From NCBI GenBank assembly GCA_029004355.1, contig JAQURV010000016.1, forward strand, positions 1-22,007: a stretch of 22,007 nt of DNA. Reading direction: 5' to 3'. Made by a program: the position numbers and the translations under genes. Source of the stretch: Candidatus Omnitrophota bacterium. Its GTDB lineage: Bacteria > Omnitrophota > Gorgyraeia > 2-01-FULL-45-10. Below the pieces are notes generated by a model that searched no databases, was not told the DNA's origin, and saw only the letters and a list, made by a program, of their open reading frames with translations. This document shows positions 1-15,260 of this stretch, in pieces. Each line of letters starts with the position of its first letter. Position 1 is the first letter of the stretch.

Positions 1-2190
1 GTGTGCTCTTCCGATCTGGTCGGGCAGCTATCGCGCGCATTCGATAAGATGACGGCGGACTTAAAACATACGACCGCTTCCATAGACAGGCTCAATAGGG
101 AGATTGCCGCGCGCAAGGAGATCGAGAACGATATTAAAAAAATCCAGAAGCAGCAACAGGATATCAACGAACTCCAGCAGCTGCTTCTTGCCCCGGGCGT
201 GCTCGAAAATAAAATTAAAGTCATTACCGATGGCATTGTGCGTATTTTTAACGCCGACTTCTGCCGGATATGGCTGATCCGGCCGGGGGACCTGTGTGAT
301 CAAGGATGCGTTCATGCCGGGGTCAAGGAAGGGCCCCACGTCTGCCGTTTTCGCGACAAATGCCTGCATCTACTGGCAAGCTCCGGCACGTACACACACA
401 TAGACGGCAAGATCCACCGGCGCGTTCCGTTCGACTGTTACAAGATCGGACGCGTCGCTTCGGGCAAGGACCACAGGTTCCTGACAAATGATGTGCCGAA
501 CGATCCCCGCGTACATGATCATGAATGGGCGCATAAACTGGCTCTCGTATCTTTTGCGGGATACCAGATCCGGATCCCGGGAGGAGAGACGATGGGGGTC
601 CTGGCCCTCTTCGCCAAACATCCCATATTGCCCGCCGAAGACGCGCTCTTAGACAGCCTCAGCAGCACTGTCGCTTTCGTTGTTCAGCAATCTGCCTCGC
701 AGGAGAAATTATCGAAAACAGCGGCGGAGTGGGAGACGACGTTCAATTCCATCCCGGACCTGATCTCGATCTACGACAAAGACTACAGGATCGCCAAGGT
801 GAACAAGGCCTTTGCGGATTTCTTCAAGATGAAGCCTGAAGAGGTCGTCGGTAAATTTTGTTATGAGGTGATCCACGGGACCGATAAACCTTACCCGGGG
901 TGCCCCCACAAGAAGACGATGGAGACCGGAAAGCCTTCTGTGTCGGAATTCTTTGAACCCAAGCTGGGTATATATGTCGAGGCGTCGGCCTCGCCGGTAT
1001 TCGATGATAATAAAAATATCATCGGTACGGTCCACATAATAAAGAATATTACCGAGCGAAAGAAGACCGATATTGCCTTGCGCCAACTGGCCAATATAGT
1101 GGAATCGTCGGATGACGCCATCATCGGCAAGAGCCTTGACGGTGTTATAACGAGCTGGAATAAAGGAGCCGAGCGCCTCTATGGATATACCGAAAAAGAG
1201 GTCGTGGGGAAGAACGTCTCTGTCTTGATCCCGGAAGAATATGCTGAAGGACTGCGCGCGATCAACGAGAAGATAGCGAAAGGTCTGTCGGTAGAGCGCC
1301 TTGAGACGATGCGGCAGAAGAAAGACGGGACAAAATTTTATGTCTCCCTGACCATCTCTCCGATAAAAGATAATGACGGAAATATCGTAGGCGCTTCTAC
1401 GATAGCGCACGATATCACGGAACGCAAAAAGACCGAAGAGTTGCTGCGAAGGTACAATGAAGAATTGGAGAAAGCTGTTGATGCAAGGACGAGTGAACTG
1501 AGGGCATCGCAGGATAAGCTCGTTCGTTCCGAAAAGATGGCCAGCATCGGAAAGCTGGCCTCGAGCGTGGCGCACGAGCTCAGGAACCCGTTAGGGGTAA
1601 TGAAGAATGTGGTATATTACCTGAACATGCTGGGCCTGTCCAAAGAGAACCCGGAGGTCAAGGAGAACCTGGACATCATTACTCAGGAGATAGAGAATTC
1701 GGATAAGATCATCGCGGACCTTCTGGAGTTTTCCAGGGCTAAGAACCCTGTCCTCCGGCCGGAGAACATAAATTTGATAGTCAGGGAGGTTTTGAGCAGG
1801 CTGAGGATAGAGCCGAATATAGAATTGGTCCTGGACCTGAAAGACGGCCTGCCGGATATAGCGGTAGACGCGCTCCAGATGCATCAGATCTTTTATAACC
1901 TGATCAAGAACGCGTTAGAGGCGATGGAGCAAGGCGGCAAGCTTAAGATAACTACGGCTCACGAAGGAGAATTTATAGAAGCTGCTGTTTCCGATACGGG
2001 CGGCGGCATCTCAGAAGAGAATCTGGCGAAGATATTCGAACCGCTCTTTTCGACGAAGACGAAGGGCACGGGGCTTGGGCTATCCATCTGCGCATCGCTG
2101 GTGGAGAGGCATGAGGGCAAGCTGGAAGTCAAGAGCGAGGCCGGCAAGGGCACGACTTTTACGGTCAAATTACCTGTTAAGAGAGGATGA
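1..2190 (+). CDS. Sensor histidine kinase, 5'-partial (runs off window start): HAMP tail, coiled coil, Cys/His-rich GAF, two PAS domains, HisKA, HATPase_c
   Basis: H-box 'SSVAHELRNPLGV'. N-box 'FYNLIKNALEA'. G-boxes 'DTGGGI' and 'GTGLGLSI'. GAF-like region from 'ITDGIVRIFNADFCRIWLI' to 'GETMGVLALFAK'. Two PAS-like repeats, each ending in 'ITERKKT'. The ORF starts at nt 1 with no upstream stop, so it is truncated. Confidence 0.9.
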   Translation: MCSSDLVGQLSRAFDKMTADLKHTTASIDRLNREIAARKEIENDIKKIQKQQQDINELQQLLLAPGVLENKIKVITDGIVRIFNADFCRIWLIRPGDLCDQGCVHAGVKEGPHVCRFRDKCLHLLASSGTYTHIDGKIHRRVPFDCYKIGRVASGKDHRFLTNDVPNDPRVHDHEWAHKLALVSFAGYQIRIPGGETMGVLALFAKHPILPAEDALLDSLSSTVAFVVQQSASQEKLSKTAAEWETTFNSIPDLISIYDKDYRIAKVNKAFADFFKMKPEEVVGKFCYEVIHGTDKPYPGCPHKKTMETGKPSVSEFFEPKLGIYVEASASPVFDDNKNIIGTVHIIKNITERKKTDIALRQLANIVESSDDAIIGKSLDGVITSWNKGAERLYGYTEKEVVGKNVSVLIPEEYAEGLRAINEKIAKGLSVERLETMRQKKDGTKFYVSLTISPIKDNDGNIVGASTIAHDITERKKTEELLRRYNEELEKAVDARTSELRASQDKLVRSEKMASIGKLASSVAHELRNPLGVMKNVVYYLNMLGLSKENPEVKENLDIITQEIENSDKIIADLLEFSRAKNPVLRPENINLIVREVLSRLRIEPNIELVLDLKDGLPDIAVDALQMHQIFYNLIKNALEAMEQGGKLKITTAHEGEFIEAAVSDTGGGISEENLAKIFEPLFSTKTKGTGLGLSICASLVERHEGKLEVKSEAGKGTTFTVKLPVKRG

Positions 2191-2193
2191 GAT

Positions 2194-2937
2194 ATGGCGG
2201 AAAAGACAAGAGTGCTGATCGTCGACGATGATGTTAATTTTTGCAATACGCTGTCGAAGGTATTGGCTAAGAAGGGGTACGAAACAACCACTGCGAACAG
2301 CGGTGCAAGTGCTATCGAAATAATAAAAAAGCAGGCGGTAGATACGGTGCTCATGGATATCAAGATGCCCGTAATGAACGGCGTGGAGACCTATAAGCAA
2401 CTCAAGGTAATAAGATCGGACATCAGGGTAATATTGATGACCGCCTTCTCCGTAGAGGACCTGATCAGGGACGCCTTAAAAGAAGGGGTTTACGCCGTGG
2501 TCCGCAAACCTTTCGATATGGAGATGGTCATAAATATGATAGAGAAATCGAAGAACGGGGCGCTAGTAGCTATAGTCGACGATAACCCTAATATCTGCAC
2601 CACGATGAAGAAGGTCCTGGAGAATAAGGGTTACAGCGTCAGCACCTGCCTTACGGGCGAAGAAGCGATCGTCATGGCGAAACAAAGGCCGCATAACATA
2701 TTCTTTATCGACATGAAATTGCCGGTCCTGAACGGGCTGGAGACATACCTGGAGATAAAGAAGGTGAACCCTGCCGCCATAGTGATGGTGATGACAGCCC
2801 ATCGCCAGGAGATGGACGATCTTGTCGCGCAGGCTATAAAGAACGGCGCTTATATCTGTCTCTATAAGCCGTTCGACATGAATGAAGCCATCAGGCTGAT
2901 CGATGAGATTTCCGGGAAGGCGCATAAACGTGATTGA
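2194..2937 (+). CDS. Tandem-receiver response regulator (REC-REC, no output domain)
   Basis: Two CheY-like modules. Each has an N-terminal acidic pair ('LIVDDD' / 'AIVDDNP'), a phospho-acceptor Asp ('LMDIKMP' / 'FIDMKLP'), a conserved T/S ('LMTAFS' / 'VMTAH') and a Lys ('RKPF' / 'YKPF'). The RBS GAGAGGA lies 7 nt upstream of the ATG. It starts 4 nt after the kinase stop. Confidence 0.85.
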   Translation: MAEKTRVLIVDDDVNFCNTLSKVLAKKGYETTTANSGASAIEIIKKQAVDTVLMDIKMPVMNGVETYKQLKVIRSDIRVILMTAFSVEDLIRDALKEGVYAVVRKPFDMEMVINMIEKSKNGALVAIVDDNPNICTTMKKVLENKGYSVSTCLTGEEAIVMAKQRPHNIFFIDMKLPVLNGLETYLEIKKVNPAAIVMVMTAHRQEMDDLVAQAIKNGAYICLYKPFDMNEAIRLIDEISGKAHKRD

Positions 2938-4045
2938 TATCCTCGTTGTAGATGATGACGCCGGCGCAAGGAAGAGCTTCGGGAATATATTGAAGCTTAA
3001 AGGCTATGGCGTAGAGACCGCGGGGACAGGGCAGGAAGCGATCTCTAAGATCAAGGAGAAGTTCTTCAATATAGTTTTTTTGGATATACGGCTGCCCGAC
3101 ATCAGCGGCCTGGAAGTCTTGAAGACCATAAGCGACTTCAATGAAGATATCGTGACTATAATGGTGACCGCCTACGCGTCTATAGATTCATCCATCGATG
3201 CTATAAATAAAGACGCCTACTCTTATATTACAAAACCCGTAAATATGGACCAGGTACTGCAGGTTATCGGCAAGGCGCTCGAGAAACAGCGCCTGGCGAT
3301 GGAGAATAAGCGTCTATTAAAAGAGCTGAAAGAGGCTAACGAAAAATTAAGAGAGATGGATGCCCGCAAGTCGGATTTTGTGGCCAACGTATCCCATGAG
3401 TTCAAGAACCCGCTGGCCGTCATAAAACAGTCCCTTACCATTGTGCTCGAGGGGATGGCGGGGGAGATAAACCCGAAACAGAAGGAGATACTCGAAGCGG
3501 GACAAAGGAATATAGAGCGGCTCATACGGTTGGTCATGGACCTCCTCGACCTGTCCAAAATAGAATCCGGAAAGATAGAGATGAAGAGGGATAAGATCGA
3601 TATAACGTCGCTGGTAGATCAACTGCTGAAGGATTACGAGAATGAGATTTCCAGAAAAAACCTCGTACTTAATAAAGATATCCAGCCGGATATGGGGATG
3701 GTCTGGGCCGACAAGGACAAATTGACGGAAGTCATCATAAATCTTCTGAATAACGCCATAAAGTATACAAACAAAGGCTCCGTAACCGTTAAGCTTAGCG
3801 GGACGGAGGACGAGATACGTTTCGAGGTCGCCGATACCGGACCCGGCATCAAGAAGGAATATCTTGAAAAGATATTCGATAAGTTCGAGCGCATACTGGC
3901 TGAGAGGCAGGAAGGGACGGGCCTGGGCCTTTCCATCGCCAAAGATATAGTAAGATTACACAAAGGAAATATCTGGGTGGAGAGCGAACCCGGGAAGGGC
4001 AGTAAATTCATTTTTACCCTGCCGCGGGACTTAAGACGCTCTTAA
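2903..4045 (+). CDS. Hybrid response regulator/histidine kinase (REC-HisKA-HATPase_c)
   Basis: Receiver motifs 'ILVVDDD', 'FLDIRLPD', 'MVTAYAS' and 'TKP'. H-box 'SHEFKNPLAVI'. ATPase motifs 'NLLNNAIKYT', 'DTGPGI' and 'GTGLGLSI'. The start is either ATG 2903 (35-nt overlap with the upstream gene) or in-frame GTG 2930 (the GTGATTGA overlap with the upstream stop). Confidence 0.85.
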   Translation: MRFPGRRINVIDILVVDDDAGARKSFGNILKLKGYGVETAGTGQEAISKIKEKFFNIVFLDIRLPDISGLEVLKTISDFNEDIVTIMVTAYASIDSSIDAINKDAYSYITKPVNMDQVLQVIGKALEKQRLAMENKRLLKELKEANEKLREMDARKSDFVANVSHEFKNPLAVIKQSLTIVLEGMAGEINPKQKEILEAGQRNIERLIRLVMDLLDLSKIESGKIEMKRDKIDITSLVDQLLKDYENEISRKNLVLNKDIQPDMGMVWADKDKLTEVIINLLNNAIKYTNKGSVTVKLSGTEDEIRFEVADTGPGIKKEYLEKIFDKFERILAERQEGTGLGLSIAKDIVRLHKGNIWVESEPGKGSKFIFTLPRDLRRS

Positions 4046-5313
4046 TCTTTCGCTTTTCTGTCTTTCCCCAACAGGTCTCTCAGCTTTTCCAGATCCAGAC
4101 CGCTCTCATCGATAAACTGCTTTATATTCGCCCCGCCTTCGGCGTCGAGATTGATCCCAAAAAATTTCTGGGCGTTCGTACCGCTCATGATCCACTTCAC
4201 GTCGGCTTTTTGTATGGCGGCGCCGAGAGCGTTAAACTTGGAGATCATGATCTCTTTCTGGATATCGAGCATCTTGACGTTTATGGCCATGTCGTCGAAC
4301 TTCTTCATCGCCTCTGCGAGTTTCAGCGTTCCCGCCGCGTCGGCCTCTTTCTTTATCTGTATTATATTGGCTTCCGCCTTCCCGACGAGCTGTATCTGGC
4401 TTGACTGGCCTTCGGCCTCAACGGTATATTTTATCTTTTGCGCCATGGCCAGCTGTTCTATCTTCTGTTTCTCTATCTCCGCCTGGCCTACCTGCAGCTT
4501 CCTCATGGCCTCTATCCTCTGGGCGTTGGCCTCCGCTTCCTTATCGGCTATCTCCTGGTTCTTTATCTGTTCAGCCATCCCGATCTGTTTATCTTTCTCG
4601 ATCTGCCGTTTGCGGTAGATCTCCTCCGCCTCCGCCTTTGCCAGTTCCGCCTCTTTGGTCGTGGTAGCCACTTTGATATCCGCGTCTCTCCTTATTTCCG
4701 CGGCAACCTTTCTTTCTATATCCTGAATAATGGTACTGCCTACTACATCCTTTATATCCTTCAATTCCAGGTCGACCAGCTCTATGCCCCACTTCGGGAA
4801 TACCTGTTCCACTTCCTTGGTTATAGCCTGATCTAATAGCGATCTGTTCATATAAATATCCAAAAGCGTCTGTTTTGTGGTAACGGTCCTGCCGACGCTC
4901 TCCATAATGGCTCTCAGGTCTTCGGAAAGCCTTATAAAATCAAAACCCATCTCTTTTGAAGTATCGGTGAGTATTAACCTTTCGACCGCCAGGCTGATAT
5001 CTTTTATATTGATAAAGCACATTATGTCGCAGACGAACTTGGCCATATTCTTGTCGTTCAATTTTATATCGTTAACGGGAATGGCCAGATTGCAAAGAGG
5101 CAGTTTGTGTAATTTAGTTATGAAAGGGATCACCCAATATGCGCTCTTGCCTGTTCGTGAGGAGAATATGGTCTTGGAATTACGCAAGATCCTGATATGC
5201 ACTTCGTTGACGGGAACTATCCTGTAAAGGCCGATCATTCCGCCGAATATGTGCCTTAGAAAATAAATGACCGGTGCGGCAATTACAATTGATACTATTG
5301 TCAACGTCGTCAT
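4042..5313 (-). CDS. SPFH/Band-7 flotillin-like membrane protein (YqiK/FloA type)
   Basis: N-terminal TM helix, an SPFH core and a long Ala/Glu/Lys/Gln-rich coiled coil ('AEAEEIYRKRQIEKDKQIGMAEQIKNQEIADKEAEANAQRIEAMRK'). The RBS AGGAGGG precedes the ATG at 5313. Its stop overlaps the stop of the convergent hybrid kinase. Confidence 0.8.
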   Translation of the reverse strand: MTTLTIVSIVIAAPVIYFLRHIFGGMIGLYRIVPVNEVHIRILRNSKTIFSSRTGKSAYWVIPFITKLHKLPLCNLAIPVNDIKLNDKNMAKFVCDIMCFINIKDISLAVERLILTDTSKEMGFDFIRLSEDLRAIMESVGRTVTTKQTLLDIYMNRSLLDQAITKEVEQVFPKWGIELVDLELKDIKDVVGSTIIQDIERKVAAEIRRDADIKVATTTKEAELAKAEAEEIYRKRQIEKDKQIGMAEQIKNQEIADKEAEANAQRIEAMRKLQVGQAEIEKQKIEQLAMAQKIKYTVEAEGQSSQIQLVGKAEANIIQIKKEADAAGTLKLAEAMKKFDDMAINVKMLDIQKEIMISKFNALGAAIQKADVKWIMSGTNAQKFFGINLDAEGGANIKQFIDESGLDLEKLRDLLGKDRKAKD

Positions 5314-5385: not shown

Positions 5386-6444
5386 CTACTTACGATCTTT
5401 AATTTTCAAAGCGACATTGACGAGGATTATAAGGGCGGGGACTTCTATCAGGGGACCTATAACGGTCGCAAAAGCCTGGTTAGAGCTGATCCCGAAGATC
5501 GCGACCGCAACCGCAATAGCAAGCTCGAAATCGTTGCTGGCCGCCGTAAAAGAAGCGGCGGTCGTCTGTCCGTAACCGATCCCCATCTTTCGGGCGATGA
5601 AGAACGTGACAAACCACATAAAGAAGAAATATATGAGGAGCGGCACCGCGATCCTTAATACGTCGAAAGGCAGCTGTATGATGTATTGTCCTTTCAGGGA
5701 AAACATGACGACGATAGTAAAGAGAAGCGCGACGAGCGTTATGGGGCTTATCCTCGGGATAAAGACATCTTCAAACCACCTCTTCCCTTTTAGCTTAATC
5801 AGGCCGGCGCGGGTGAGTACCCCTCCGAGAAACGGTATCCCTAAGTAAAAAAATACGGTTTTGGCCGCCTCGACCATCGAAATGCTGATATTCAATCCCT
5901 TCGCAAGTCCCAGCCAGTTAAGGCCGACGGTAATAAATAGATAGATGTAGGCTGCGTAGAACAAGACCTGGAAAAGCGCGTTAAAAGCGACGAGTCCTAT
6001 GGCAAATTCCCTATCGCCTTCCGCAAGCTCGTTCCAGACGATAACCATCGCTATACATCTGGCCAGCCCTACCAAGATCACGCCGATCATATACTCCGGA
6101 TAACCCCTAAGGAAGACTATCGCAAGGATGAACATCACCAGCGGACCGACTATCCAGTTTTGCACGAGAGAAAGGATGAGAAGTTTCGGTTTATTGAATA
6201 CCTTCCCGATCTCCTCGTATTTTACTTTTGCAAGGGGCGGATACATCATAAGGATGAGACCTATGGCGATCGGGACCGAGGTCGTCCCGACCTGCATACC
6301 GGATATGATCTTAGTAACGCCGGGGACAAAATACCCCAAAGCTATCCCGGCTCCCATCGCAATAAATATAAGCGGGGTTAAAAGCTTGTCCAATAAGGAC
6401 AGTTCCCGCCTTAATTCCTTTGCCGCATGCTTGGTATATTGCAT
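5386..6444 (-). CDS. acr3: ACR3-family arsenite efflux permease
   Basis: ACR3 signatures are present: '[24 protein letters not shown]', '[18 protein letters not shown]' and the conserved Cys in '[11 protein letters not shown]'. It has about 10 TM segments and is about 350 aa. It lies 4 nt downstream of arsM. Confidence 0.85.
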
Positions 6445-6448
6445 CCGG

Positions 6449-7225
6449 CTATTCCTTTTTTGCCGATATCTTCACGCTGGCTATCGCGTCTTCGGTACAT
6501 TTAAATTCCTTGAACATAGCGTCTGTGGGATAACTCGTCTGACCGATCACTTTGACTTCTTTAAACCCGGCAAGCTTTATAAACCTCAGGTATTCATCTT
6601 TCTTGATCGCTCCGGCAAGACAACCCACGTATGCCTCGACCGATCCCTTTATTATGTCCGGCAGATCTTTGACCAGGACCAGATCGGAAACCATGAGCCG
6701 CCCTCCGGGTTTAAGCACCCTGAAAGCCTCTTTAAAAACCCTCTGTTTTTCAGGTGATAGATTAATGACACAGTTTGATATAATGACGTCGATCGAAGCA
6801 TCCTCGACGGGCAGTTTTTCGATCTCACCCAGCCTGAATTCCACATTCGTATACTTACCCTTCCCGGCATTCTTCCGGGCTTTTTCGATCATCTCCGGTG
6901 TCATATCAACGCCTATAACCCGGCCGGTCTTGCCGACTTTTGGAGAAGCAAGGAATGCGTCAAATCCGGCGCCGCTTCCCAGATCAAGCACGACATCGCC
7001 CTCCCTCAAAGATGCAATAGCAACCGGGTTGCCGCATCCAAGGCCCAGGTTGGCGCCTTCGGGAACGATATCAATGTCTGTGTCGCTATAACCGACTGTT
7101 TTACTTATATTTTTCACAGAGCTTGCGCTCCCGCAGCATGAATCCGTAAGGCAGCAAGAAACGTTCTGCGACGCTACTTTGGCGTATTTTTCTTTCACTA
7201 TCTTTTTTATCTTCCTGTCTTTCAT
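6449..7225 (-). CDS. arsM: Arsenite S-adenosylmethionine methyltransferase ArsM
   Basis: SAM motif I 'VLDLGSGAG'. N-terminal cysteine cluster '[11 protein letters not shown]'. Further Cys at 'GLGCGNP', 'SNCVINL' and 'YVGCLAG'. The true start is the internal ATG at 7225 ('MKDRKIKK') with RBS GGGGGTG. The listed 6449-7525 ORF is a 5' read-through. The start overlaps the ccdA stop as ATGA. Confidence 0.85.
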
Positions 7226-7896
7226 ATAAGCACCCCCAGATAAATAGCTATATAATACAGCCCTACTGCCATAAAGATAGCTCCGGTAATTTTTCTTGCG
7301 TATACCTCGAGTCTGGCCACCTTGCCGAACCAATGGTTTAAAGAGGTGATCCCCAATGCAATGCCCAGGGCAAAAATAAATACAGGCAGGCCAGTACCGA
7401 GCCCATATATGAAGGGCAGGCTCAACCCTACCTTGCTCTCTACCGCCAGCGGTATGAGGCTCCCGAAAAAGAGCGCGGCCGATATAGGGCAAAACGACAG
7501 CGCAAAGATAAAGCCTAGGATGCAAGCGCCGAATATGCCGGACCCGGCGAGCCTGGTTTGATGTCTTTCCTGGATTATCAGGCTCGGGATATTGAGTTTA
7601 AAAATATCCAGCAAAAAAAGGCCCGCGATTATCAGGATCGGACCCAATGCTTTGTTCATATACTTCTGCAGAAAGTTCGCCGCCAGGGGCACGCTTAATA
7701 GAGACTTCACGATAAGAAAACCCAATATAGCATACGCCAGCATCCTGCCTATGGTATACGAGATCCCCGATAAAAATACCGTCTTTGGATGGGTTATCTT
7801 CCTGGAGAGGAATGAGATCGCCGCGATATTCGTCGCGAGCGGGCACGGGCTTATTGAGGTAAGGACGCCGAGCCAGAGGGCCGTCAGGATGATCAT
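7222..7896 (-). CDS. ccdA: CcdA/DsbD-family transmembrane thiol-disulfide electron transporter
   Basis: Six predicted TM helices. The first redox Cys is in 'SISPCPL' and the second Cys in 'ALSFCPISAA', the typical CcdA arrangement. The RBS AAGGAG lies upstream of ATG 7896. Confidence 0.8.
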   Translation of the reverse strand: MIILTALWLGVLTSISPCPLATNIAAISFLSRKITHPKTVFLSGISYTIGRMLAYAILGFLIVKSLLSVPLAANFLQKYMNKALGPILIIAGLFLLDIFKLNIPSLIIQERHQTRLAGSGIFGACILGFIFALSFCPISAALFFGSLIPLAVESKVGLSLPFIYGLGTGLPVFIFALGIALGITSLNHWFGKVARLEVYARKITGAIFMAVGLYYIAIYLGVLI

Positions 7897-7899
7897 CTA

Positions 7900-8307
7900 T
7901 TAAAGCTCCTTGAGATACTTTTCTATCTCTGTTCTTATATATTGGTGAAAGGCGTCCTTGTTCCTCAGGTATTCCCATACCTTGGTGAGATTGTCGGATT
8001 TGATCTCCTTACCGCCCTTTACCAGAGAGAGTACGACGGATTTCGTATAAAGCTTGTACTCGTCCGTAAAATGTTCGTTACCTTTCGTTTCGACGTTGAC
8101 TACCTTAAAAACTACCGTGCCCGCATCCAATTCTTTCCGGAAATATTTCTCGACCGCCTCTTTCGTGTTCTGTTCGATCGTTTTGCAATTGACGCATCGG
8201 AAATTACCGTGAAAGTAATAGACTATCACGCTGTTTGCGGGAGCGGCTTCGCATACAAACGAAACGAATATGAGCGCCGCAACTAAAAGGAGCCGTGCGC
8301 GTTTCAT
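7900..8307 (-). CDS. Secreted thioredoxin/glutaredoxin-fold protein with a CVNC motif
   Basis: The true start is ATG 8307 ('MKRARLLLVAALIFVSFVCEA', signal peptide with AXA site) behind RBS GGGGGAG. The mature N-terminus 'VIVYYFHGNFRCVNCKTIEQNTKEAVEKY' matches the beta1-CxxC-alpha1 pattern of Grx/NrdH/ArsC-like folds. About 110 mature residues. Confidence 0.5.
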   Translation of the reverse strand: MKRARLLLVAALIFVSFVCEAAPANSVIVYYFHGNFRCVNCKTIEQNTKEAVEKYFRKELDAGTVVFKVVNVETKGNEHFTDEYKLYTKSVVLSLVKGGKEIKSDNLTKVWEYLRNKDAFHQYIRTEIEKYLKEL

Positions 8308-8543
8308 TTCTCCCCCGAGATCCATTTTTTTATTTCTTCCGCCTTGGGAATGCGGCCGTAGCATTTGATCTTGCCGTTAATGCGCAACCCCGGCGTCTGC
8401 ATAATACCCGCGTCCACTATCTTATTTATCTCTTTGACCTTTTCGACGTCCGCGACGATATTGAGTTCCGAAAGGACGCTCTTTACGCCCTTTTCAACCT
8501 CACCGCACCGATGGCATCCCGGCCCGAATATCTCTATCTTCAT
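8304..8543 (-). CDS. Small thioredoxin-family protein (TIGR00412-like redox-active disulfide protein 2), CHRC active site
   Basis: 'MKIEIFGPGCHRCGE...' followed by '...GIMQTPGLRINGKIKCYGRIPKAEEIKKWI' matches the ~78-aa TM0996/MTH895 family. The true start is ATG 8543 with RBS GGGGGGAGAG. Its stop overlaps the next start as ATGA. Confidence 0.75.
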   Translation of the reverse strand: MKIEIFGPGCHRCGEVEKGVKSVLSELNIVADVEKVKEINKIVDAGIMQTPGLRINGKIKCYGRIPKAEEIKKWISGEK

Positions 8544-8559: not shown

Positions 8560-9615
8560 TTAAAACCGCGGCACAAAAAACCAGAACACAAGACCTGCTA
8601 TAGTTCCGCATATCCACATAAGCGTCGCATATACCGCCGGAACGCGCGGCTTAACTATCTTGCATACCCCTAGTATCGAAGGCAGGCTTAAAGCCGGGCC
8701 CGTCAGAAGAAATGCCATCGCGGCGCCTGTTCCCATGCCGGACTCCAGGAACCCCCGGACGAGCGGTATCTCGACTAAGGTCGGGGTATACATGAATACG
8801 CCGATAGCCGAGGATAGCATGACCGGTAAAATGCCGTTGCCCAGGTATTTGATTATGACCGATGGGGGCAAAAATGCCTTTACGAGGCCCGCGCAGATAA
8901 CGCCCAAGAATATCAAAGGAAGCACCATCTTTACGAATTCCCACGAATACAATGCCATATTGACCAACCTCTTGCCAAAACCCTGATCTTCCTGCGATCC
9001 TCCATCGGCTTCCGTATCTATACGCACCGGTTCGGGTTCGGGAAGCCTGTTCTTAAAGATCCTGTCTGTGGTATATCCTACGAGGATCCCTGCCGTTACC
9101 GCAACCATAGCTCTTGCTACGGCAAACTTCCAGCCGAGAAGACCCAGAGTGAGCAGGATCGCTGCCGGGTTAAATGCGGGAGCGGCCAGAAGAAAGGTGA
9201 TCGCAGGACCAAGGCCTGCGCCTCTTTTATATAATCCCCCGAAGAGAGGAATGATGCTGCATGAGCACATCGAAAGGAGCGGCCCCCCGAGACCGGCCAC
9301 CGCGTACGGCGTAAAACCTCTGCCTGATCCCATAAGTTTGATGACTTTGTCTCTCGGCGCAAATTCCTGGAGCGCGCCGGCGGCTATAAAGGCCAGCAAA
9401 AGGCATAGCCATGAATGCTTTACATAGTCGATGATGGTAAAGACCAGGAACATGTGCACCGGTATCTTGTGCTCCTGCAAAAGTTGCGCGGTAATGACCT
9501 TGTTCTCGGCCATTGTGACCTTGACGCCCGTCCATGCCCCGGTCCATTCGTATACGATTATTACCGCGAAGATCAGGACCAGTATCGTTATCGCGAATAT
9601 CGTCCTTCTATCCAT
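8560..9615 (-). CDS. arsP: ArsP-like / DUF318 (YraQ) permease with a 'MCSCSIIP' motif
   Basis: About 8-10 TM helices with a two-repeat architecture. The Cys motif 'LSMCSCSIIPLF' resembles the ArsP 'TPFCSCSxxP' signature. It is paired with a TIGR00412-like thioredoxin immediately downstream. Confidence 0.7.
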   Translation of the reverse strand: MDRRTIFAITILVLIFAVIIVYEWTGAWTGVKVTMAENKVITAQLLQEHKIPVHMFLVFTIIDYVKHSWLCLLLAFIAAGALQEFAPRDKVIKLMGSGRGFTPYAVAGLGGPLLSMCSCSIIPLFGGLYKRGAGLGPAITFLLAAPAFNPAAILLTLGLLGWKFAVARAMVAVTAGILVGYTTDRIFKNRLPEPEPVRIDTEADGGSQEDQGFGKRLVNMALYSWEFVKMVLPLIFLGVICAGLVKAFLPPSVIIKYLGNGILPVMLSSAIGVFMYTPTLVEIPLVRGFLESGMGTGAAMAFLLTGPALSLPSILGVCKIVKPRVPAVYATLMWICGTIAGLVFWFFVPRF

Positions 9616-9617
9616 AA

Positions 9618-9920
9618 TTACCGTCTCTTCCTTGTTATTTTACAGCAGCCGCCCTCGATCCTTATAGCCTTGATATTGACCAGTCCGTCGGCGATCTTAT
9701 TGCGGGCGGATGATACGATCCTTGAGAATGTCGGTCTCGATATTTTGAGTCTTTTAGCCGCATCTATCTGTTTTAACCCGTCCAGATCGGCCAGCCTGAC
9801 GGCCTCAAATTCATCCAGGGTCAAACAGATACATTTAACCTTATTTAAGGGTTTGCAGATGGGCTTGAAACATCTCTCGCCCGGCAGGCATTTTATCCAT
9901 CTAGTCTTCTTCGGTCTCAT
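9618..9920 (-). CDS. DUF134 (UPF0251) predicted DNA-binding protein, Cys-rich; candidate operon regulator
   Basis: 'MRPKKTRWIKCLPGERCFKP...LTLDEFEAVRLADLDGLKQIDAAKRLKISRPTFSRIVSSARNKIADGLVNIKAIRIEGG' matches the DUF134 N-terminus plus a sigma-70 region-4-like HTH. It has seven Cys in 100 aa, including a vicinal 'GGCCK'. It is the first gene after the promoter/operator and sits 2 nt upstream of arsP. Confidence 0.65.
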   Translation of the reverse strand: MRPKKTRWIKCLPGERCFKPICKPLNKVKCICLTLDEFEAVRLADLDGLKQIDAAKRLKISRPTFSRIVSSARNKIADGLVNIKAIRIEGGCCKITRKRR

Positions 9921-9982
9921 CTATCCGCCATTATGAACATATGTTCATAATTAATTATACCACATCCCGGTGATTATGCAAA
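9921..9982 (-). promoter_or_regulatory. Sigma70-type promoter (TTGCAT-N16-TATAAT) with a perfect 20-bp palindromic operator over the +1 region
   Basis: The minus strand reads tTTGCATaatcaccgggatgtggTATAATtaaTTATGAACATATGTTCATAAtggcggatagATG. The -35 is at 9981-9976 and the -10 at 9959-9954. The palindrome TTATGAACATATGTTCATAA spans 9950-9931. The DUF134 ATG is at 9920. Confidence 0.55.
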
Positions 9983-11320
9983 TTATTTTTGGATCTTACG
10001 GAAGGCGTGCTTTATCTTTCTTTCCATTATGAAATCGTACCTAAGGTATAGACGCGTCCAGGCCGAGCGTTCCGTCGACATCCTGACGGCTTCGCGCAAA
10101 AACTCGTAGTCGACTCCTTTTATCTTAGGCAGGATGGGGGCGCGCGAGTAATCGCTGTGGGCCTTTATCAGAGAAAGGTCGTTCTTTATGCAGTAATCGT
10201 AAAGGTCGCTCCCCGGATGAGGCGTAAAGAACGCGGGGCTCATCCTGTACGGCTTTATCTTCCGTATCATCCTGACCGTATCCATGGCCTCTTCTCTTGT
10301 CTCCGTCGGGATCCCGAACATGTAGTTGGCCCACATCCTTATGCCGTGTTTCTTGCAGATCTTCGCGGCCCTGTAGTTCATCTCGGCGGTCGAGCCTTTT
10401 CTCAATAGTTTGAGTATGCGGTCGTTGCCGCTTTCGAAACCGATGAGGAACATGCCGAGGCCGGAGCTCTTCATGATCCTTATCATATCTTCGTTCTTGC
10501 AGATTATATCCGCCCTGCTCTGGCAAACGAACGGCGCCTTGAACCCGTTCTTTCTGTACTCTCTGCAGAATTTTTCGATCCAGCCCCTGTCTTCGGTAAG
10601 GCAGTCGTCGTGGAACATCATGCTTTGAAAATGATACCTGTCGCGGAGTTCGTTCAGTTCTTTGATTATATTGTCGACCGACCTGCGCCTTACCTTGTTC
10701 CCGAATATCTTGCGCTCGGCAGGCTGGCAGAAGCTGCAGTTGTAGATGCATCCCCTGCCCGCTATAAGCGTGACGAACGGCCTGTCCAGAAAGCTCTCTA
10801 TGGGCGATTCCTTGTAACGGAATAGTTCCCTGTCCGCGAAAGGAAGGCTGTTGAGGTCGGGGTGCTCGCCCGTTATCACCTTCTCCGCCGGGGCGCCCTT
10901 TTCGATATCCGCGAGCAGTTTTACAAAGCTCGTCTCCCCTTCGCCGATGATAATATGGTCGATGTAGTTATTCGATGTGAGTTCTTCCGGCATTATGCTG
11001 GGGTGCGGCCCGCCTATGACGACTTTTACGTTAGGCAGAGCTGCCTTGGCAGCCTTCGCCGCTTCAACGGCGTAGTCAAAATCGACGCTCATCATCGTTA
11101 TGGCTACGACGTCGGGAGAGAGTTCTTTCAGGTCCTTTTGAAAATCGTCCCACCCGGACAGCTCTCTTAGGTCTATGAGGTTCGTCAGGTGCCCGGCCCT
11201 TTTGGCGCAGGCGCTTAAATAGCAGAGTCCGTGGTGCAGCGAGCTAAAAGTTATAGGCTGCCTGGCCTTGGCAAAACCTGTTTCACCGACAGCCGGAAGC
11301 ACAAAGACTATCTTCAGCAT
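9983..11320 (-). CDS. Cobalamin-binding (class B) radical SAM enzyme
   Basis: The N-terminal Rossmann-like B12-binding region begins 'KIVFVLPAV...'. The radical SAM cluster motif is 'GRGCIYNCSFCQ' (CxxxCxxC), followed by 'GFESGNDRIL'. 445 aa. A TATAAT lies only 8-13 nt upstream of the ATG and there is no obvious SD. Confidence 0.85.
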   Translation of the reverse strand: MLKIVFVLPAVGETGFAKARQPITFSSLHHGLCYLSACAKRAGHLTNLIDLRELSGWDDFQKDLKELSPDVVAITMMSVDFDYAVEAAKAAKAALPNVKVVIGGPHPSIMPEELTSNNYIDHIIIGEGETSFVKLLADIEKGAPAEKVITGEHPDLNSLPFADRELFRYKESPIESFLDRPFVTLIAGRGCIYNCSFCQPAERKIFGNKVRRRSVDNIIKELNELRDRYHFQSMMFHDDCLTEDRGWIEKFCREYRKNGFKAPFVCQSRADIICKNEDMIRIMKSSGLGMFLIGFESGNDRILKLLRKGSTAEMNYRAAKICKKHGIRMWANYMFGIPTETREEAMDTVRMIRKIKPYRMSPAFFTPHPGSDLYDYCIKNDLSLIKAHSDYSRAPILPKIKGVDYEFLREAVRMSTERSAWTRLYLRYDFIMERKIKHAFRKIQK

Positions 11321-11917: not shown

Positions 11918-12520
11918 CTACATTTCTAATCTCAATTCCTTATTTTTATATTGCAGTTTCACGGAGGTGCTTGTAATAGCGACAACCTTCGCGCTATCCA
12001 CTTCGTCGCCCACGGCTACGGTCTTACCGTTAATAATAGCCTTAGAGCCCATGATGCCTGCCAGCTCGAATTCACTTGCCGGTTTGGGCTGAGCGGCGGC
12101 GGCTGTTTTGGCCTTAGGCGATTTATCGAGTACTGCTTTCATGATGCCGGCGAAGGTCGGCGCGTTCCTGTATCCTACGACAGTATCCACGGTCTTGCCG
12201 GCCGCGCTGAAGAATATGACGGTGGGATATCCCCGCAGTTTATATTTTGAGAACGCGTTCTTATCGACCCCGCAATCCACCTTAACACAGATGAATCTTT
12301 CGGCCAGTTTATCCACGGTCTCATCCACATAAACATCTTCGTCGAGTTTTTTACACCAGCCGCACCATTCCGTGTAGAAATCGGCCATGACGGGTTTGCC
12401 TTCGGCCTTTGCCTTTTTGAACGCCCCGTCAAGGTCTGTTTCCCAGGAGATCGCCCAGGCCTCCGGACCCGAAGTCAGCACAAACGCGAATAATAGAAAC
12501 GCTGTTATGGTCTTTTTCAT
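11918..12520 (-). CDS. Secreted thioredoxin (CGWC active site)
   Basis: Signal peptide 'MKKTITAFLLFAFVLTSGPEAWA'. Canonical Trx motif 'FYTEWCGWCKKLD', with 'YPTVIFF' downstream. A C-terminal extension of about 70 aa follows. The start abuts the BASS gene stop as TAGATG, and the RBS AGGAAGG lies inside the upstream gene. Confidence 0.8.
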   Translation of the reverse strand: MKKTITAFLLFAFVLTSGPEAWAISWETDLDGAFKKAKAEGKPVMADFYTEWCGWCKKLDEDVYVDETVDKLAERFICVKVDCGVDKNAFSKYKLRGYPTVIFFSAAGKTVDTVVGYRNAPTFAGIMKAVLDKSPKAKTAAAAQPKPASEFELAGIMGSKAIINGKTVAVGDEVDSAKVVAITSTSVKLQYKNKELRLEM

Positions 12521-14016: not shown

Positions 14017-14541
14017 TTATTCCAGATCGTTCAGGATCTTTTTAATGACCTGAAATTCTTCTTTCGGGATAACGCCCGACCTGACGTAACGGACGGTCCC
14101 CGCCTTATCGATGATCAGGAAATTAGCCTCATCGACTGCCATGCCGTAGCTCTTTTCCATCGCGCCGTCCCAATCTCCGTATATGATAATGCCTTCTTTT
14201 CTGGAATTCTCGCGCAAACTCCGCTGCCATATGACCGGCATAAAAACCGAGCAGCGGATAACGGCTATCCTCATCACCTCTTTTTGTACCGCCGGAGATG
14301 ATCCCGCATAAAATGCATTCAGCTCCTCTTTAAGGGCCCTGTTCTTTTCTTTTGTATCTTTCGTTTCATAGAATATCGTGGCTACTTTATCTTTAAGCAT
14401 ATCGGATGTAAGGGTCTCGTTGCTGCCGGATACCACCCGAAAATACGGCGCTTTCTCCCCGTTGGTTATGCCGATTGCTGGGGCAGCCGATAAAACGATA
14501 AAGCATACGATTATTATAAATACGTTAAATAGTTTTGCCAA
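14017..14541 (-). CDS. Periplasmic thioredoxin-fold (redoxin/YtfJ-like) protein lacking a CxxC motif
   Basis: Signal-peptide-like 'AKLFNVFIIIVCFIVLSAAPAIG'. Redoxin-fold pattern ('KVATIFYETKDTK...', 'FLIIDKAGTVRYV'). The ORF contains no ATG start. The TTG at 14541 has an AAGGG RBS, whereas the TTG at 14586 has none. The boundary is uncertain by 45 nt. Confidence 0.45.
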   Translation of the reverse strand: MAKLFNVFIIIVCFIVLSAAPAIGITNGEKAPYFRVVSGSNETLTSDMLKDKVATIFYETKDTKEKNRALKEELNAFYAGSSPAVQKEVMRIAVIRCSVFMPVIWQRSLRENSRKEGIIIYGDWDGAMEKSYGMAVDEANFLIIDKAGTVRYVRSGVIPKEEFQVIKKILNDLE

Positions 14542-15091
14542 GGTTATAGGCCCTTTCGAGTAATTTAGCGTGTTTCTTAGCGTCAAAATCTGCGGCGCCT
14601 GTCGCCGTAAGCGTTTTTATCCTGACGTGCATATAATTGAAAAATGCCTTCATGGCCCGGACAGAACCCGTAACGATACCTAATAGATGGGAAAACGGAA
14701 AGGGCGCGTGACAGCTTGTTATCAGGATGACCTTACCCGGTTTTTTGGAAGGATAGACAGGGCCGAAGCGGAACTCTTTGAACATAGAATAGCCTCTGTC
14801 AAAAAATCTTTTGGCGCAGGAGGTCACATTGCTAAAATAGGTAGGCGAGCTAAAAACTACTATGTCGGCGTCCCGGATCTTGTCGGCAACGGCATTAAAA
14901 TCGTCTTCTATGATGCATCGCCCCGTTCGCTGGCAGGCGGAACAACCCCTGCATGGCTTTATTGTCAGATCCATAAAATAGATCTTCTCGGTAGAGGCGC
15001 CTCTGTCACGCAACCCATCGAGGGCAGATTCCGTTAATCTGTCGGTTACCTGCCCTTTTCTCGGTCCTGTTACGATCCCGATCGCTTTCAT
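14525..15091 (-). CDS. Iron-sulfur flavoprotein (Isf) / NAD(P)H-dependent FMN reductase family
   Basis: Flavodoxin-like 'MKAIGIVTGPRKGQVTD'. Compact cluster motif 'CRGCSACQRTGRC' (C-x2-C-x2-C-x5-C) typical of Isf. 'VFSSPTYFSNV' FMN-binding segment. ATG 15091 is preferred over GTG 15127, which would read through an AT-rich promoter-like tract. Confidence 0.7.
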   Translation of the reverse strand: MKAIGIVTGPRKGQVTDRLTESALDGLRDRGASTEKIYFMDLTIKPCRGCSACQRTGRCIIEDDFNAVADKIRDADIVVFSSPTYFSNVTSCAKRFFDRGYSMFKEFRFGPVYPSKKPGKVILITSCHAPFPFSHLLGIVTGSVRAMKAFFNYMHVRIKTLTATGAADFDAKKHAKLLERAYNLGKTI

Positions 15092-15260
15092 CTTTAAAAT
15101 AATTATAGCATATAAAAGAAAACCCACCTACCTTTTCCACTTCTCGTATATGCGGTAGATGGGCCAAACCCTACGAGGCTTATGGGCTACTGTCTAAATC
15201 CTCTCTCCCTTAGCCTCATATATAGTATAGCACATTTTTCGGTAAAATACAATGGTTCGG
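15092..15260 (-). promoter_or_regulatory. Intergenic region with two extended -10 promoters (TTGTAT-N16-TGcTATACT distal; TGcTATAAT 10 nt from the ATG)
   Basis: The minus strand reads ...cattgTTGTATtttaccgaaaaatgTGcTATACTatat... with the -10 at 15229-15224. It also reads ...tataTGcTATAATtattttaaagATG with the -10 at 15107-15102. No SD precedes the ATG, so the proximal promoter would give a near-leaderless mRNA. Confidence 0.4.

What the first reader, a model, noticed from the sequence alone, without database searches (positions are those of the whole stretch)
7222..8543. CcdA, secreted CVNC protein and cytoplasmic TIGR00412 thioredoxin form a transmembrane reductant relay inside an arsenic operon
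The trio has a cytoplasmic CHRC thioredoxin, a membrane CcdA and a periplasmic CxxC thioredoxin/glutaredoxin-fold protein. That is the minimal architecture for exporting reducing equivalents to the periplasm. The DUF318 permease, TIGR00412 thioredoxin and CcdA co-occur in other genomes (recalled from memory). The inserted signal-peptide protein with 'YYFHGNFRCVNCK' is unusual and could be a periplasmic arsenate or organoarsenical reductase analogue, which would compensate for the missing ArsC.
Basis: partly seen in the sequence, partly recalled or inferred. Interest (0 to 1): 0.7.

Follow-up and report, generated by a model that had tools for sequence, protein, structure and literature searches.

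The report
Known ArsEFG arsenic-resistance gene trio
The three genes are the already named arsE-arsF-arsG arsenic-resistance module, but their sequences look more like a chain passing reducing power (or arsenic) across the cell membrane through cysteine pairs than like the "nitroreductase plus efflux pump" of their official names.

Summary
Window 7222-8543 (minus strand) holds three tightly packed genes. One is a cytoplasmic MTH895-type thioredoxin with CHRC (8304-8543). One is a signal-peptide protein with RCVNC (7900-8307). One is a CcdA/DsbD-like membrane protein (7222-7896). They lie in an operon of DUF134 regulator, ArsP-like permease, the trio, ArsM and Acr3.

The trio is not new. All three pass the curated NCBIfam cut-offs for ArsE, ArsF and ArsG, and NCBI already names this contig's protein ArsF. 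Castillo & Saier (2010) reported CcdA + thioredoxin + redox-active disulfide protein 2 in ars operons and proposed electron transfer to the periplasm.

The "unusual" protein belongs to a large family: 4085 representative clusters at 50% identity. In 80 related genome loci, ArsG follows it in 77 of 78 and ArsE precedes it in 73 of 76.

My evidence favours the relay architecture:
- About 97-99% of ArsF homologues carry a Sec-type leader.
- ArsG keeps both CcdA active-site cysteines.

Points against or unproven:
- ArsF lacks the canonical cis-proline.
- The electron flow and the substrate are inferred.
- "Compensates for missing ArsC" is not supported, because ArsC sits in 17 of the 80 related clusters.

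The parts
9954..9982 (-). Promoter-like site (TTTGCA-17-TATAAT with TG) in the 62-base gap upstream of the DUF134 gene. It is a candidate operon promoter.
   Evidence: The position fits, but the number of such sites in the region is no higher than in shuffles, so this is weak evidence.
9618..9920 (-). DUF134 DNA-binding protein, the likely regulator at the head of the operon, where ArsR sits in the two Bacteroidota clusters.
   Evidence: Pfam DUF134, E 9.4e-21. It heads 49 of 80 related clusters. Cys11, Cys17, Cys22 and the vicinal Cys92-Cys93 are conserved in 44-50 of 50 sequences.
8560..9615 (-). ArsP_1 (DUF318) family permease with an MCSCS motif.
   Evidence: Pfam ArsP_1, 207 bits. Present in 69 of 80 related loci and in both Bacteroidota clusters.
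8304..8543 (-). ArsE: a 79-aa cytoplasmic MTH895-type thioredoxin-like protein. The CHRC codons are at 8505-8516, there is a cis-Pro motif (QTPG), and there is no leader peptide.
   Evidence: TIGR00412, 89.9 bits against a cut-off of 62. PDB 1ILO (MTH895), E 4.9e-18. G-x-G-C-x-x-C is present in 74 of 74 neighbours. The most hydrophobic 12-mer scores only 1.2 on the Kyte-Doolittle scale.
7900..8307 (-). ArsF: a 135-aa exported thioredoxin-fold protein. The signal peptide covers residues 1-21 (8245-8307) and the RCVNC active site has its CVNC codons at 8185-8196.
7222..7896 (-). ArsG: a 224-aa CcdA/DsbD-superfamily membrane protein. Cys18 is in SPCPL (7843-7845) and Cys136 in FCP (7489-7491).
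   Evidence: NF040495, 272 bits against a cut-off of 200. Pfam DsbD_2 and DsbD_TM. Both Cys are invariant in 22 sequences and their motifs are present in 76 of 78 neighbours. A family profile hits CcdA 5VKV, E 0.0017, with the first Cys aligned and the second one residue out of register. The two halves align Cys on Cys, z about 2.6.
6449..7225 (-). ArsM arsenite S-adenosylmethionine methyltransferase. Its start overlaps the arsG stop (ATGA).
   Evidence: NF008823, 357.8 bits against a cut-off of 263. The junction was read.
5386..6444 (-). ACR3 arsenite efflux transporter, the last gene of the operon.
   Evidence: TIGR00832, 443.8 bits against a cut-off of 282.8. Present in 48 of 80 related loci.

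Best explanation
The three genes are the arsE-arsF-arsG module of arsenic-resistance operons, here in a Candidatus Omnitrophota genome.

Proposed mechanism, a CcdA-type thiol-disulfide relay:
- ArsE is a small cytoplasmic MTH895-type thioredoxin, kept reduced by the cell's thioredoxin reductase.
- ArsE hands two electrons to the cysteine pair of the membrane protein ArsG (Cys18 and Cys136, each next to a proline in TM1 and TM4).
- ArsG in turn reduces the R-C-x-x-C site of ArsF.
- ArsF is a thioredoxin-fold protein exported by a Sec leader.
- Reduced ArsF then acts outside the cytoplasm, either on an arsenical or on thiols that arsenicals have damaged. This is the compartment into which the neighbouring Acr3 and ArsP-like exporters release trivalent (methyl)arsenicals.

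What is shown and what is inferred:
- Shown here: gene identity, folds, cysteine and leader conservation, and the fixed gene order.
- Inferred: the direction and existence of electron flow, and ArsF's substrate.
- From the literature: resistance to aromatic arsenicals (PMC9144182 citing Chen, Zhang & Rosen 2019). Reduction of their nitro group is implied by the NCBIfam family names and by my memory of that paper. I could not read the paper.
For: Identity:
- All three proteins pass the curated NCBIfam cut-offs: ArsE 89.9 against 62, ArsF 113.8 against 60, ArsG 272 against 200.
- NCBI already names the identical protein of this 22007-base contig ArsF.

ArsG as a CcdA relative:
- It matches Pfam DsbD_2 and DsbD_TM.
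- C18 and C136 are invariant.
- A family profile hits CcdA 5VKV, E 0.0017. The first Cys aligns and the second is one residue out of register.
- The two halves align Cys on Cys.

ArsF:
- The AlphaFold2 model has pLDDT 86.9 and a thioredoxin fold.
- The CxxC sits at the start of helix 1. R37-C38-x-x-C41 is invariant in 146 diverse members.
- CPTC is the commonest form of the motif. From memory, that is also the CcmG motif.

Opposite sides of the membrane:
- A Sec-type leader (K/R, then a hydrophobic 12-mer with KD mean about 3, then C-E-A|A) is present in 118 of 119 close and 124 of 128 distant homologues. It is also present in two Bacteroidota proteins.
- ArsE has no leader.

Linkage:
- ArsG is adjacent in 77 of 78 related loci. 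ArsE lies within 700 nt upstream in 73 of 76.
- The same four genes lie behind ArsR in Fulvitalea and Prevotella.
- Start and stop codons overlap in the window.

Precedent: Castillo & Saier proposed the same electron path in 2010 (PMC2963123).
Against: - ArsG is cited as an experimentally shown efflux transporter for organoarsenicals (PMC9144182), and NCBIfam names it a permease.
- ArsF has no proline at the position of the cis-Pro loop that classical thioredoxin-fold oxidoreductases carry. The position reads T88-K89-S90 and no column there is Pro-rich.
- No ArsF-ArsG or ArsE-ArsG fusion protein appears among the best 150 family representatives.
- Castillo & Saier themselves judged transmembrane flow 'less likely', because ArsC is cytoplasmic.
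- No electron transfer, redox state or substrate was or could be measured here.
Confidence: 0.5

Rival explanations
1. The official names taken literally. ArsE and ArsF are two subunits of a nitroreductase that converts nitrophenyl arsenicals (roxarsone, nitarsone) to aminophenyl arsenicals. ArsG is an efflux permease that pumps out the amine product.
For: - The NCBIfam model names are curated after the Shewanella putrefaciens study.
- PMC9144182 states that ArsG was shown to be an efflux transporter and that ArsE and ArsF confer organoarsenical resistance, citing Chen, Zhang & Rosen 2019.
- A permease role is not absurd for this fold. PGAP names the more distant plasmid homologues of ArsG (27-34% identity) 'sulfite exporter TauE/SafE family protein'.
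Against: - ArsE has no leader while ArsF has a Sec leader in 97-99% of homologues. The two cannot form one soluble enzyme.
- Neither protein matches a flavin, Fe-S or other cofactor family. ArsE matches only Thioredoxin_3 in Pfam and ArsF matches no Pfam family. A six-electron nitro reduction by two small dithiol proteins would be unusual chemistry (inference).
- ArsG keeps exactly the two catalytic cysteines of CcdA.
- The module is widespread: 4085 representative ArsF clusters at 50% identity in a library of public genomes and metagenomes. Nearly all of the 80 genome loci retrieved are uncultured-organism assemblies, mostly Omnitrophota. Synthetic nitro-aromatic arsenicals are unlikely to be the native substrate there (inference).
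Confidence: 0.22
2. A thiol ligand-exchange relay for the arsenical itself, analogous to MerP-MerT-MerA for mercury. A trivalent arsenical R-As(III) is bound by one cysteine pair and handed to the next, from ArsE through ArsG to ArsF or in reverse. ArsG would then really translocate arsenic, using its two cysteines as the binding site, and no net electron transfer would be needed.
For: - The anatomy is the same as for the electron relay: three conserved cysteine pairs, arranged cytoplasm, membrane and outside.
- It reconciles the reported efflux function of ArsG with the conserved cysteines.
- Trivalent arsenicals bind vicinal dithiols, and arsenic systems use cysteine hand-off, as in ArsD to ArsA (PMC6205960).
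- The neighbouring permease also carries a CSC motif.
- An arsenic-treated thioredoxin structure (9ncl) is among the Foldseek matches.
Against: - There is no known precedent for a CcdA-fold protein moving a metalloid.
- ArsF would be consumed one-for-one unless the arsenical is released, and no release step or energy coupling is evident.
- ArsF has a thioredoxin fold. That is not the ferredoxin-like metal-binding fold of MerP.
- The invariant Arg37, Glu45 and His79 around the CxxC suggest catalysis more than simple chelation (inference).
Confidence: 0.15
3. One reading: ArsF is a periplasmic arsenate (or pentavalent organoarsenical) reductase that stands in for the missing ArsC.
For: - There is no ArsC in the 22 kb window.
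- An invariant Arg sits directly before the nucleophilic Cys, with conserved His33 and His79. This could make an oxyanion site.
- Castillo & Saier called the trio a 'putative arsenate reductase system'.
Against: - ArsC co-occurs in the same cluster in 17 of 80 related loci and in Prevotella. It was present in 7 of 8 operons in the 2010 survey. The trio is therefore not a substitute for ArsC.
- ArsF matches no ArsC, Spx or LMW-phosphatase profile.
- Making As(III) outside the cell gives no obvious resistance benefit (inference).
- The contig is only 22 kb, so ArsC may lie elsewhere in the genome.
Confidence: 0.08
4. A generic CcdA plus ResA/CcmG-type system for cytochrome c maturation or periplasmic disulfide repair, which merely happens to lie next to arsenic genes.
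For: The Pfam family names (cytochrome c biogenesis transmembrane region) and some JGI annotations read 'cytochrome c biogenesis protein CcdA'.
Against: - In almost all of the 80 related loci the pair lies among arsenic genes (ArsP 69, Acr3 48, ArsM 28 of 80), on one strand.
- In Bacteroidota it sits behind ArsR.
- ArsG scores above the equivalog cut-off of the ArsG model but only 19 bits against DsbD.
- ArsF lacks the cis-Pro of ResA- and CcmG-type proteins.
Confidence: 0.03

Closest known systems
ArsEFG of Shewanella putrefaciens 200 (Chen, Zhang & Rosen 2019, Environ Sci Technol 53:6182; NCBIfam TIGR00412, NF040494, NF040495)
   Same: All three window proteins pass the curated cut-offs of the three models. 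They are adjacent, co-oriented and lie in an arsenic operon.
   Different: - The host is an uncultured Omnitrophota bacterium.
- The regulator is DUF134, whereas the two Bacteroidota clusters I read have ArsR in that place.
- The module is joined to an ArsP-like permease, ArsM and Acr3.
- The natural substrate is unlikely to be a synthetic nitro-aromatic arsenical.
- I could not read the 2019 paper or retrieve the Shewanella sequences. Its assays and the leader of its ArsF are therefore unchecked.
CcdA / DsbD-beta transmembrane electron transporters with thioredoxin donor and ResA/CcmG/TlpA-type periplasmic acceptor (e.g. Thermus CcdA, PDB 5VKV)
   Same: - Pfam DsbD_TM and DsbD_2 match.
- There are two cysteines next to prolines in TM1 and TM4, and an internal repeat.
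- A cytoplasmic thioredoxin and an exported thioredoxin-fold CxxC protein are encoded alongside.
   Different: - Similarity to CcdA is distant: E 0.0017 by profile and nothing by single sequence.
- The acceptor ArsF lacks the cis-Pro loop and has an invariant Arg before the CxxC.
- The donor is a dedicated 79-aa MTH895-type protein. Canonical systems use the general thioredoxin.
- The context is arsenic resistance. Canonical systems serve cytochrome maturation.
[quoted passage not shown]
   Same: It is the same gene trio in ars operons, with the same suggestion that thioredoxin-like proteins feed CcdA for electron transfer to the periplasm.
   Different: They tied the trio to ArsC and judged transmembrane flow less likely because ArsC is cytoplasmic. 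In the passages I read they do not mention that one thioredoxin-like partner carries a signal peptide, which removes that objection.
MerP-MerT-MerA(N-terminal domain) mercury relay
   Same: It has a periplasmic CxxC protein, a membrane protein with a cysteine pair, and a cytoplasmic CxxC domain. These pass a thiol-loving toxic element by ligand exchange (own knowledge).
   Different: There is no homology. ArsF has a thioredoxin fold, unlike the ferredoxin-like metal-binding fold of MerP. ArsG has a CcdA fold, unlike MerT. The likely direction here is outward.

Membership tests
ArsEFG module (NCBIfam TIGR00412 / NF040494 / NF040495) | Each protein scores above the curated cut-off of its model | tested here: met
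   89.9 against 62, 113.8 against 60 and 272.1 against 200 bits
ArsEFG module (NCBIfam TIGR00412 / NF040494 / NF040495) | The three genes are adjacent and co-oriented within an arsenic-resistance cluster | tested here: met
   Window order and overlapping junctions. In related loci ArsG is adjacent in 77 of 78 and ArsE in 73 of 76.
ArsEFG module (NCBIfam TIGR00412 / NF040494 / NF040495) | Confers resistance to nitro-aromatic arsenicals, reduces the nitro group and exports the amine | not testable with these tools
   This needs a phenotype and speciation assay. It is known only for Shewanella, by citation and from my memory of the 2019 paper.
CcdA/DsbD-type transmembrane thiol-disulfide electron transporter (ArsG) | Homology to the DsbD transmembrane domain | tested here: met
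   Pfam DsbD_2 52.9 bits and DsbD_TM 39.8 bits, both above gathering cut-offs. Profile hit to CcdA 5VKV, E 0.0017.
CcdA/DsbD-type transmembrane thiol-disulfide electron transporter (ArsG) | Two conserved cysteines flanked by prolines, one in TM1 and one in TM4 | tested here: met
   C18 (SPCPL) and C136 (FCP) are invariant in 22 sequences. The motifs are present in 76 of 78 neighbours and in Fulvitalea. The first aligns with the first Cys of CcdA and the second is one residue out of register.
CcdA/DsbD-type transmembrane thiol-disulfide electron transporter (ArsG) | Six-helix inverted-repeat fold matching solved CcdA | tested here: inconclusive
   [not shown]
CcdA/DsbD-type transmembrane thiol-disulfide electron transporter (ArsG) | Electrons pass from a cytoplasmic thioredoxin to a periplasmic thioredoxin-like acceptor | not testable with these tools
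   Only the candidate donor (ArsE, no leader) and acceptor (ArsF, leader) are shown to be encoded alongside.
Thioredoxin-fold thiol:disulfide oxidoreductase (ArsF) | Thioredoxin fold with CxxC at the N-terminus of helix 1 | tested here: met
   [not shown]
Thioredoxin-fold thiol:disulfide oxidoreductase (ArsF) | Conserved cis-proline loop before strand 3, facing the CxxC | tested here: not met
   The position reads T88-K89-S90. No proline is conserved there in 146 diverse members. ArsE, by contrast, has QTPG.
Thioredoxin-fold thiol:disulfide oxidoreductase (ArsF) | Extracytoplasmic location | tested here: met
   This is a heuristic prediction and not SignalP. The leader has an n-region with K/R, a hydrophobic 12-mer with KD about 3, and C-E-A|A. 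It is found in 118 of 119 and 124 of 128 homologues.
Arsenate reductase ArsC (Grx-coupled ArsC/Spx type or thioredoxin-coupled LMW-phosphatase type) | Profile match to an ArsC/Spx or LMW-phosphatase family, or nearest structural neighbours of that kind | tested here: not met
   [not shown]

The most novel reading that the evidence does not exclude
ArsG is not a permease at all. It is the membrane step of a dedicated trans-envelope dithiol relay. Its end point, ArsF, would be a new kind of thioredoxin-fold catalyst with an invariant R-C-x-x-C, Glu45 and His79 and no cis-Pro. ArsF would reduce arsenicals outside the cytoplasm, for example pentavalent methyl or aromatic arsenicals or their nitro groups. 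From my own knowledge, no pentavalent organoarsenical reductase has been identified. On this reading the published 'nitroreductase plus efflux pump' model would need revision.
Probability: 0.2. Interest if true: 0.65.

Novelty: already known. Interest (0 to 1): 0.3.

Why it matters
The gene trio is known and already annotated, so the locus itself adds little. The useful point is a mismatch between the official names and the sequences.

The names say cytoplasmic two-subunit nitroreductase plus efflux permease. The sequences show one 'subunit' exported and the other not, and a 'permease' that keeps both catalytic cysteines of an electron transporter.

The module is common in ars clusters of anaerobes (thousands of sequence clusters). 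A correct mechanism would therefore change how a widespread arsenic-resistance function is annotated. It might also identify a periplasmic step in arsenic handling. The question can be settled with a few standard redox-state and cysteine-mutant experiments.

Tried and rejected
Literature:
- The 2019 ArsEFG paper, the 2016 Bacteroides vulgatus ars paper and the 2015 ArsP paper are not held.
- Searches for ArsEFG terms gave only citing papers, and one search was swamped by the fungal collection name 'ARSEF'.
- What the 2019 study measured is therefore taken from a citing sentence, from the NCBIfam names and from memory.

Shewanella sequences: I could not retrieve them. The single genome-collection scan returned mostly Omnitrophota, and the plasmid search found only two true ArsG genes, both in Bacteroidota.

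Structures:
- Neither ArsF nor ArsG has a solved relative by single-sequence search.

Other checks:
- Fusion proteins joining ArsF to ArsG were sought as interaction evidence. None was found among the best 150 representatives.
- Flanking genes (radical SAM, flotillin-like, periplasmic thioredoxin, FMN reductase) are not conserved with the cluster and were dropped from the model.
- The promoter and terminator scan is no better than shuffles.

Rejected readings: ArsF as an ArsC-like enzyme, and the trio as a substitute for ArsC.
Full report
**1. What is there**

The stated interval holds three real genes on the minus strand.
- 8304-8543 encodes a 79-aa protein, MKIEIFGPGCHRCGE...
- 7900-8307 encodes a 135-aa protein, MKRARLLLVAALIFVSFVCEAAPANSVIVYYFHGNFRCVNCK...
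- 7222-7896 encodes a 224-aa hydrophobic protein.

Reading the DNA shows tight packing:
- The first stop and the second start overlap as ATGA, with GGGGGAGAA just upstream.
- Three bases separate the second stop from the third ATG.
- The third stop overlaps the ATG of the next gene, arsM, as ATGA.

The operon runs from 9920 down to 5386. It contains a DUF134 DNA-binding protein, an ArsP_1/DUF318 permease, the trio, ArsM and ACR3. The window is a Candidatus Omnitrophota metagenome-assembled contig: an identical 135-aa protein sits on a 22007-base contig in NCBI.

**2. What the trio is**

All three proteins pass curated NCBIfam cut-offs:
- TIGR00412, 'MTH895/ArsE family thioredoxin-like protein': 89.9 bits against a cut-off of 62.
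- NF040494, 'nitrophenyl compound nitroreductase subunit ArsF family protein': 113.8 against 60.
- NF040495, 'aromatic aminobenezylarsenical efflux permease ArsG family transporter': 272.1 against 200.

NCBI already gives the ArsF name to this very protein and the ArsG name to close relatives. So the 'unusual inserted signal-peptide protein' is ArsF, and the trio is the ArsEFG module.

A citing paper says ArsG was shown to be an efflux transporter and that ArsE and ArsF confer organoarsenical resistance. It cites Chen, Zhang & Rosen 2019 (PMC9144182). I could not obtain the 2019 paper.

**3. ArsF**

- **Family size.** A profile search of 1.84 billion representatives finds 4085 clusters at E <= 0.001 and 534 at E <= 1e-30.
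- **Conserved residues.** In 146 diverse members Y31, R37, C38, C41 and E45 are invariant. F56, N71, N77, H79, Y84, L86, W111 and Y123 are nearly so.
- **Missing cis-proline.** There is no proline where classical thioredoxin-fold oxidoreductases have the cis-Pro loop; the position reads T88-K89-S90.
- **Leader.** The N-terminus is a typical Sec leader: K/R residues, a 12-residue hydrophobic core with mean Kyte-Doolittle about 3, then C-E-A|A. The same is seen in 118 of 119 close homologues and 124 of 128 distant representatives. It is also seen in the Fulvitalea and Prevotella proteins. This is a heuristic and not SignalP, but it is consistent across phyla.

**4. ArsG**

- It matches Pfam DsbD_2 and DsbD_TM.
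- C18 (SISPCPLATN) and C136 (SFCPISAA) are invariant in 22 relatives. Their motifs are present in 76 of 78 genome neighbours and in Fulvitalea at 42% identity.
- A profile of the family hits the solved electron transporter CcdA (5VKV) at E 0.0017. The first cysteine is aligned and the second is one residue out of register.
- The two halves of ArsG align with each other, Cys on Cys, at about 2.6 sd above shuffles.

**5. ArsE**

ArsE is a close relative of MTH895 (PDB 1ILO, E 4.9e-18). It has no leader, it has the QTPG cis-Pro motif, and G-x-G-C-x-x-C is present in all 74 neighbouring copies.

**6. Linkage**

In 80 related genome loci, mostly Omnitrophota with some Desulfobacterota:
- ArsG lies directly downstream of ArsF in 77 of the 78 loci with room for it.
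- ArsE lies within 700 nt upstream in 73 of 76.
- The ArsP-like permease is present in 69 loci, ACR3 in 48, DUF134 in 49 and ArsM in 28.
- When ArsM is inserted after the permease, ArsE stays with ArsF-ArsG.

In cultured Bacteroidota the same four genes follow an ArsR-type regulator:
- Fulvitalea has ArsR, thioredoxin, ArsF, ArsG, permease.
- Prevotella has a winged-helix regulator, ArsF, ArsG, thioredoxin, permease, ArsC, ACR3.

Genes flanking the window's operon are not conserved with it.

**7. Prior literature on the idea**

[quoted passage not shown] They called them a putative arsenate reductase system. They suggested that thioredoxin-like proteins donate electrons to CcdA for transfer to the periplasm, and they noted arsC in 7 of 8 such operons. 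They thought transmembrane flow less likely because ArsC is cytoplasmic. Both the trio and the relay hypothesis are therefore published.

**8. Mechanism**

The anatomy fits a CcdA-type relay best. A leaderless thioredoxin sits inside, a CcdA-like protein with both active-site cysteines sits in the membrane, and an exported thioredoxin-fold CxxC protein sits outside. The three are inherited as a unit.

This placement also means ArsE and ArsF cannot be two subunits of one soluble enzyme, as their names suggest. They can only be coupled through ArsG.

I put 0.5 on the electron relay, for three reasons:
- ArsG is cited as an experimentally shown transporter.
- ArsF lacks the cis-Pro.
- Nothing redox was measured here.

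Rivals:
- A Mer-like hand-off of the trivalent arsenical itself along the three cysteine pairs would reconcile the transport data with the cysteines (0.15).
- The literal 'nitroreductase plus permease' reading (0.22) is weakened by the opposite-side topology and the lack of any cofactor domain.
- ArsF as a substitute for ArsC (0.08) is weakened because a thioredoxin-type ArsC lies in 17 of the 80 related clusters, in Prevotella and in 7 of 8 operons of the 2010 survey.
- A generic cytochrome-maturation role (0.03) does not fit the fixed arsenic context.

**9. Verdict**

Novelty is low. The system is named, curated and already annotated on this contig, and the relay idea dates from 2010.

What remains open is the real mechanism. 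The near-universal leader on ArsF, which the passages of the 2010 paper that I read do not mention, argues that reducing power or arsenic does cross the membrane through ArsG. That is cheaply testable.

**10. Limits**

- I had no access to the primary ArsEFG paper or to the Shewanella sequences.
- There is no dedicated signal-peptide predictor and no multimer modelling among the tools.
- The ArsG model is poor.
- Most related loci come from one phylum, so the counts are not independent events.

Noticed in passing
window 9618-9920 (-): A DUF134 protein heads the ars operon, where the two Bacteroidota clusters I read have an ArsR-type regulator. It heads 49 of 80 related clusters. Cys11, Cys17, Cys22 and the vicinal Cys92-Cys93 are conserved in 44-50 of 50 sequences. 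It could be an uncharacterised As(III)-sensing regulator.
   Followed up: partly
window 11918-12520 (-): A second exported thioredoxin-like protein, with a signal peptide and a WCGWC motif. It matches Pfam Thioredoxin_7 and resembles the C-terminal domain of DsbD (60 bits to PRK00293). It lies beside a DUF6515 protein and a bile-acid/PanS-like transporter. It is not conserved with the ars cluster.
   Followed up: partly
window 9983-11320 (-): A B12-binding radical SAM protein lies directly upstream of the operon on the same strand. It is below every NCBIfam cut-off, with HpnJ, BchE and the ladderane-lipid family as best partial matches. A full-length counterpart was found only in the closest relative, L001.
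   Followed up: partly
window 18685-19710 and 19707-20912 (-): Two acetate-kinase-family genes in tandem, overlapping by 4 bases. One is full length (401 aa). The other is shorter (341 aa) and matches only part of the profile.
   Followed up: no
window 14525-15127 (-): An FMN_red/flavodoxin-like NADPH-dependent FMN reductase, in the same Pfam family as ArsH. It has no NCBIfam match. A homologue lies within 6 kb of the ArsF gene in only 2 of 80 related loci.
   Followed up: partly
proteins P0241 and P0242: Some ArsF-family proteins are tandem duplications: 317-319 aa with two ArsF domains behind one hydrophobic N-terminus. No ArsF-ArsG fusions were seen among the best 150 representatives.
   Followed up: no
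[not shown]
   Followed up: no
window 1-4045 (+): A signalling cluster: a GAF-PAS histidine kinase that runs off the window start, a protein with two receiver domains (2194-2937), and a receiver-histidine kinase hybrid (2903-4045). A flotillin-like SPFH protein follows on the other strand at 4042-5313.
   Followed up: no
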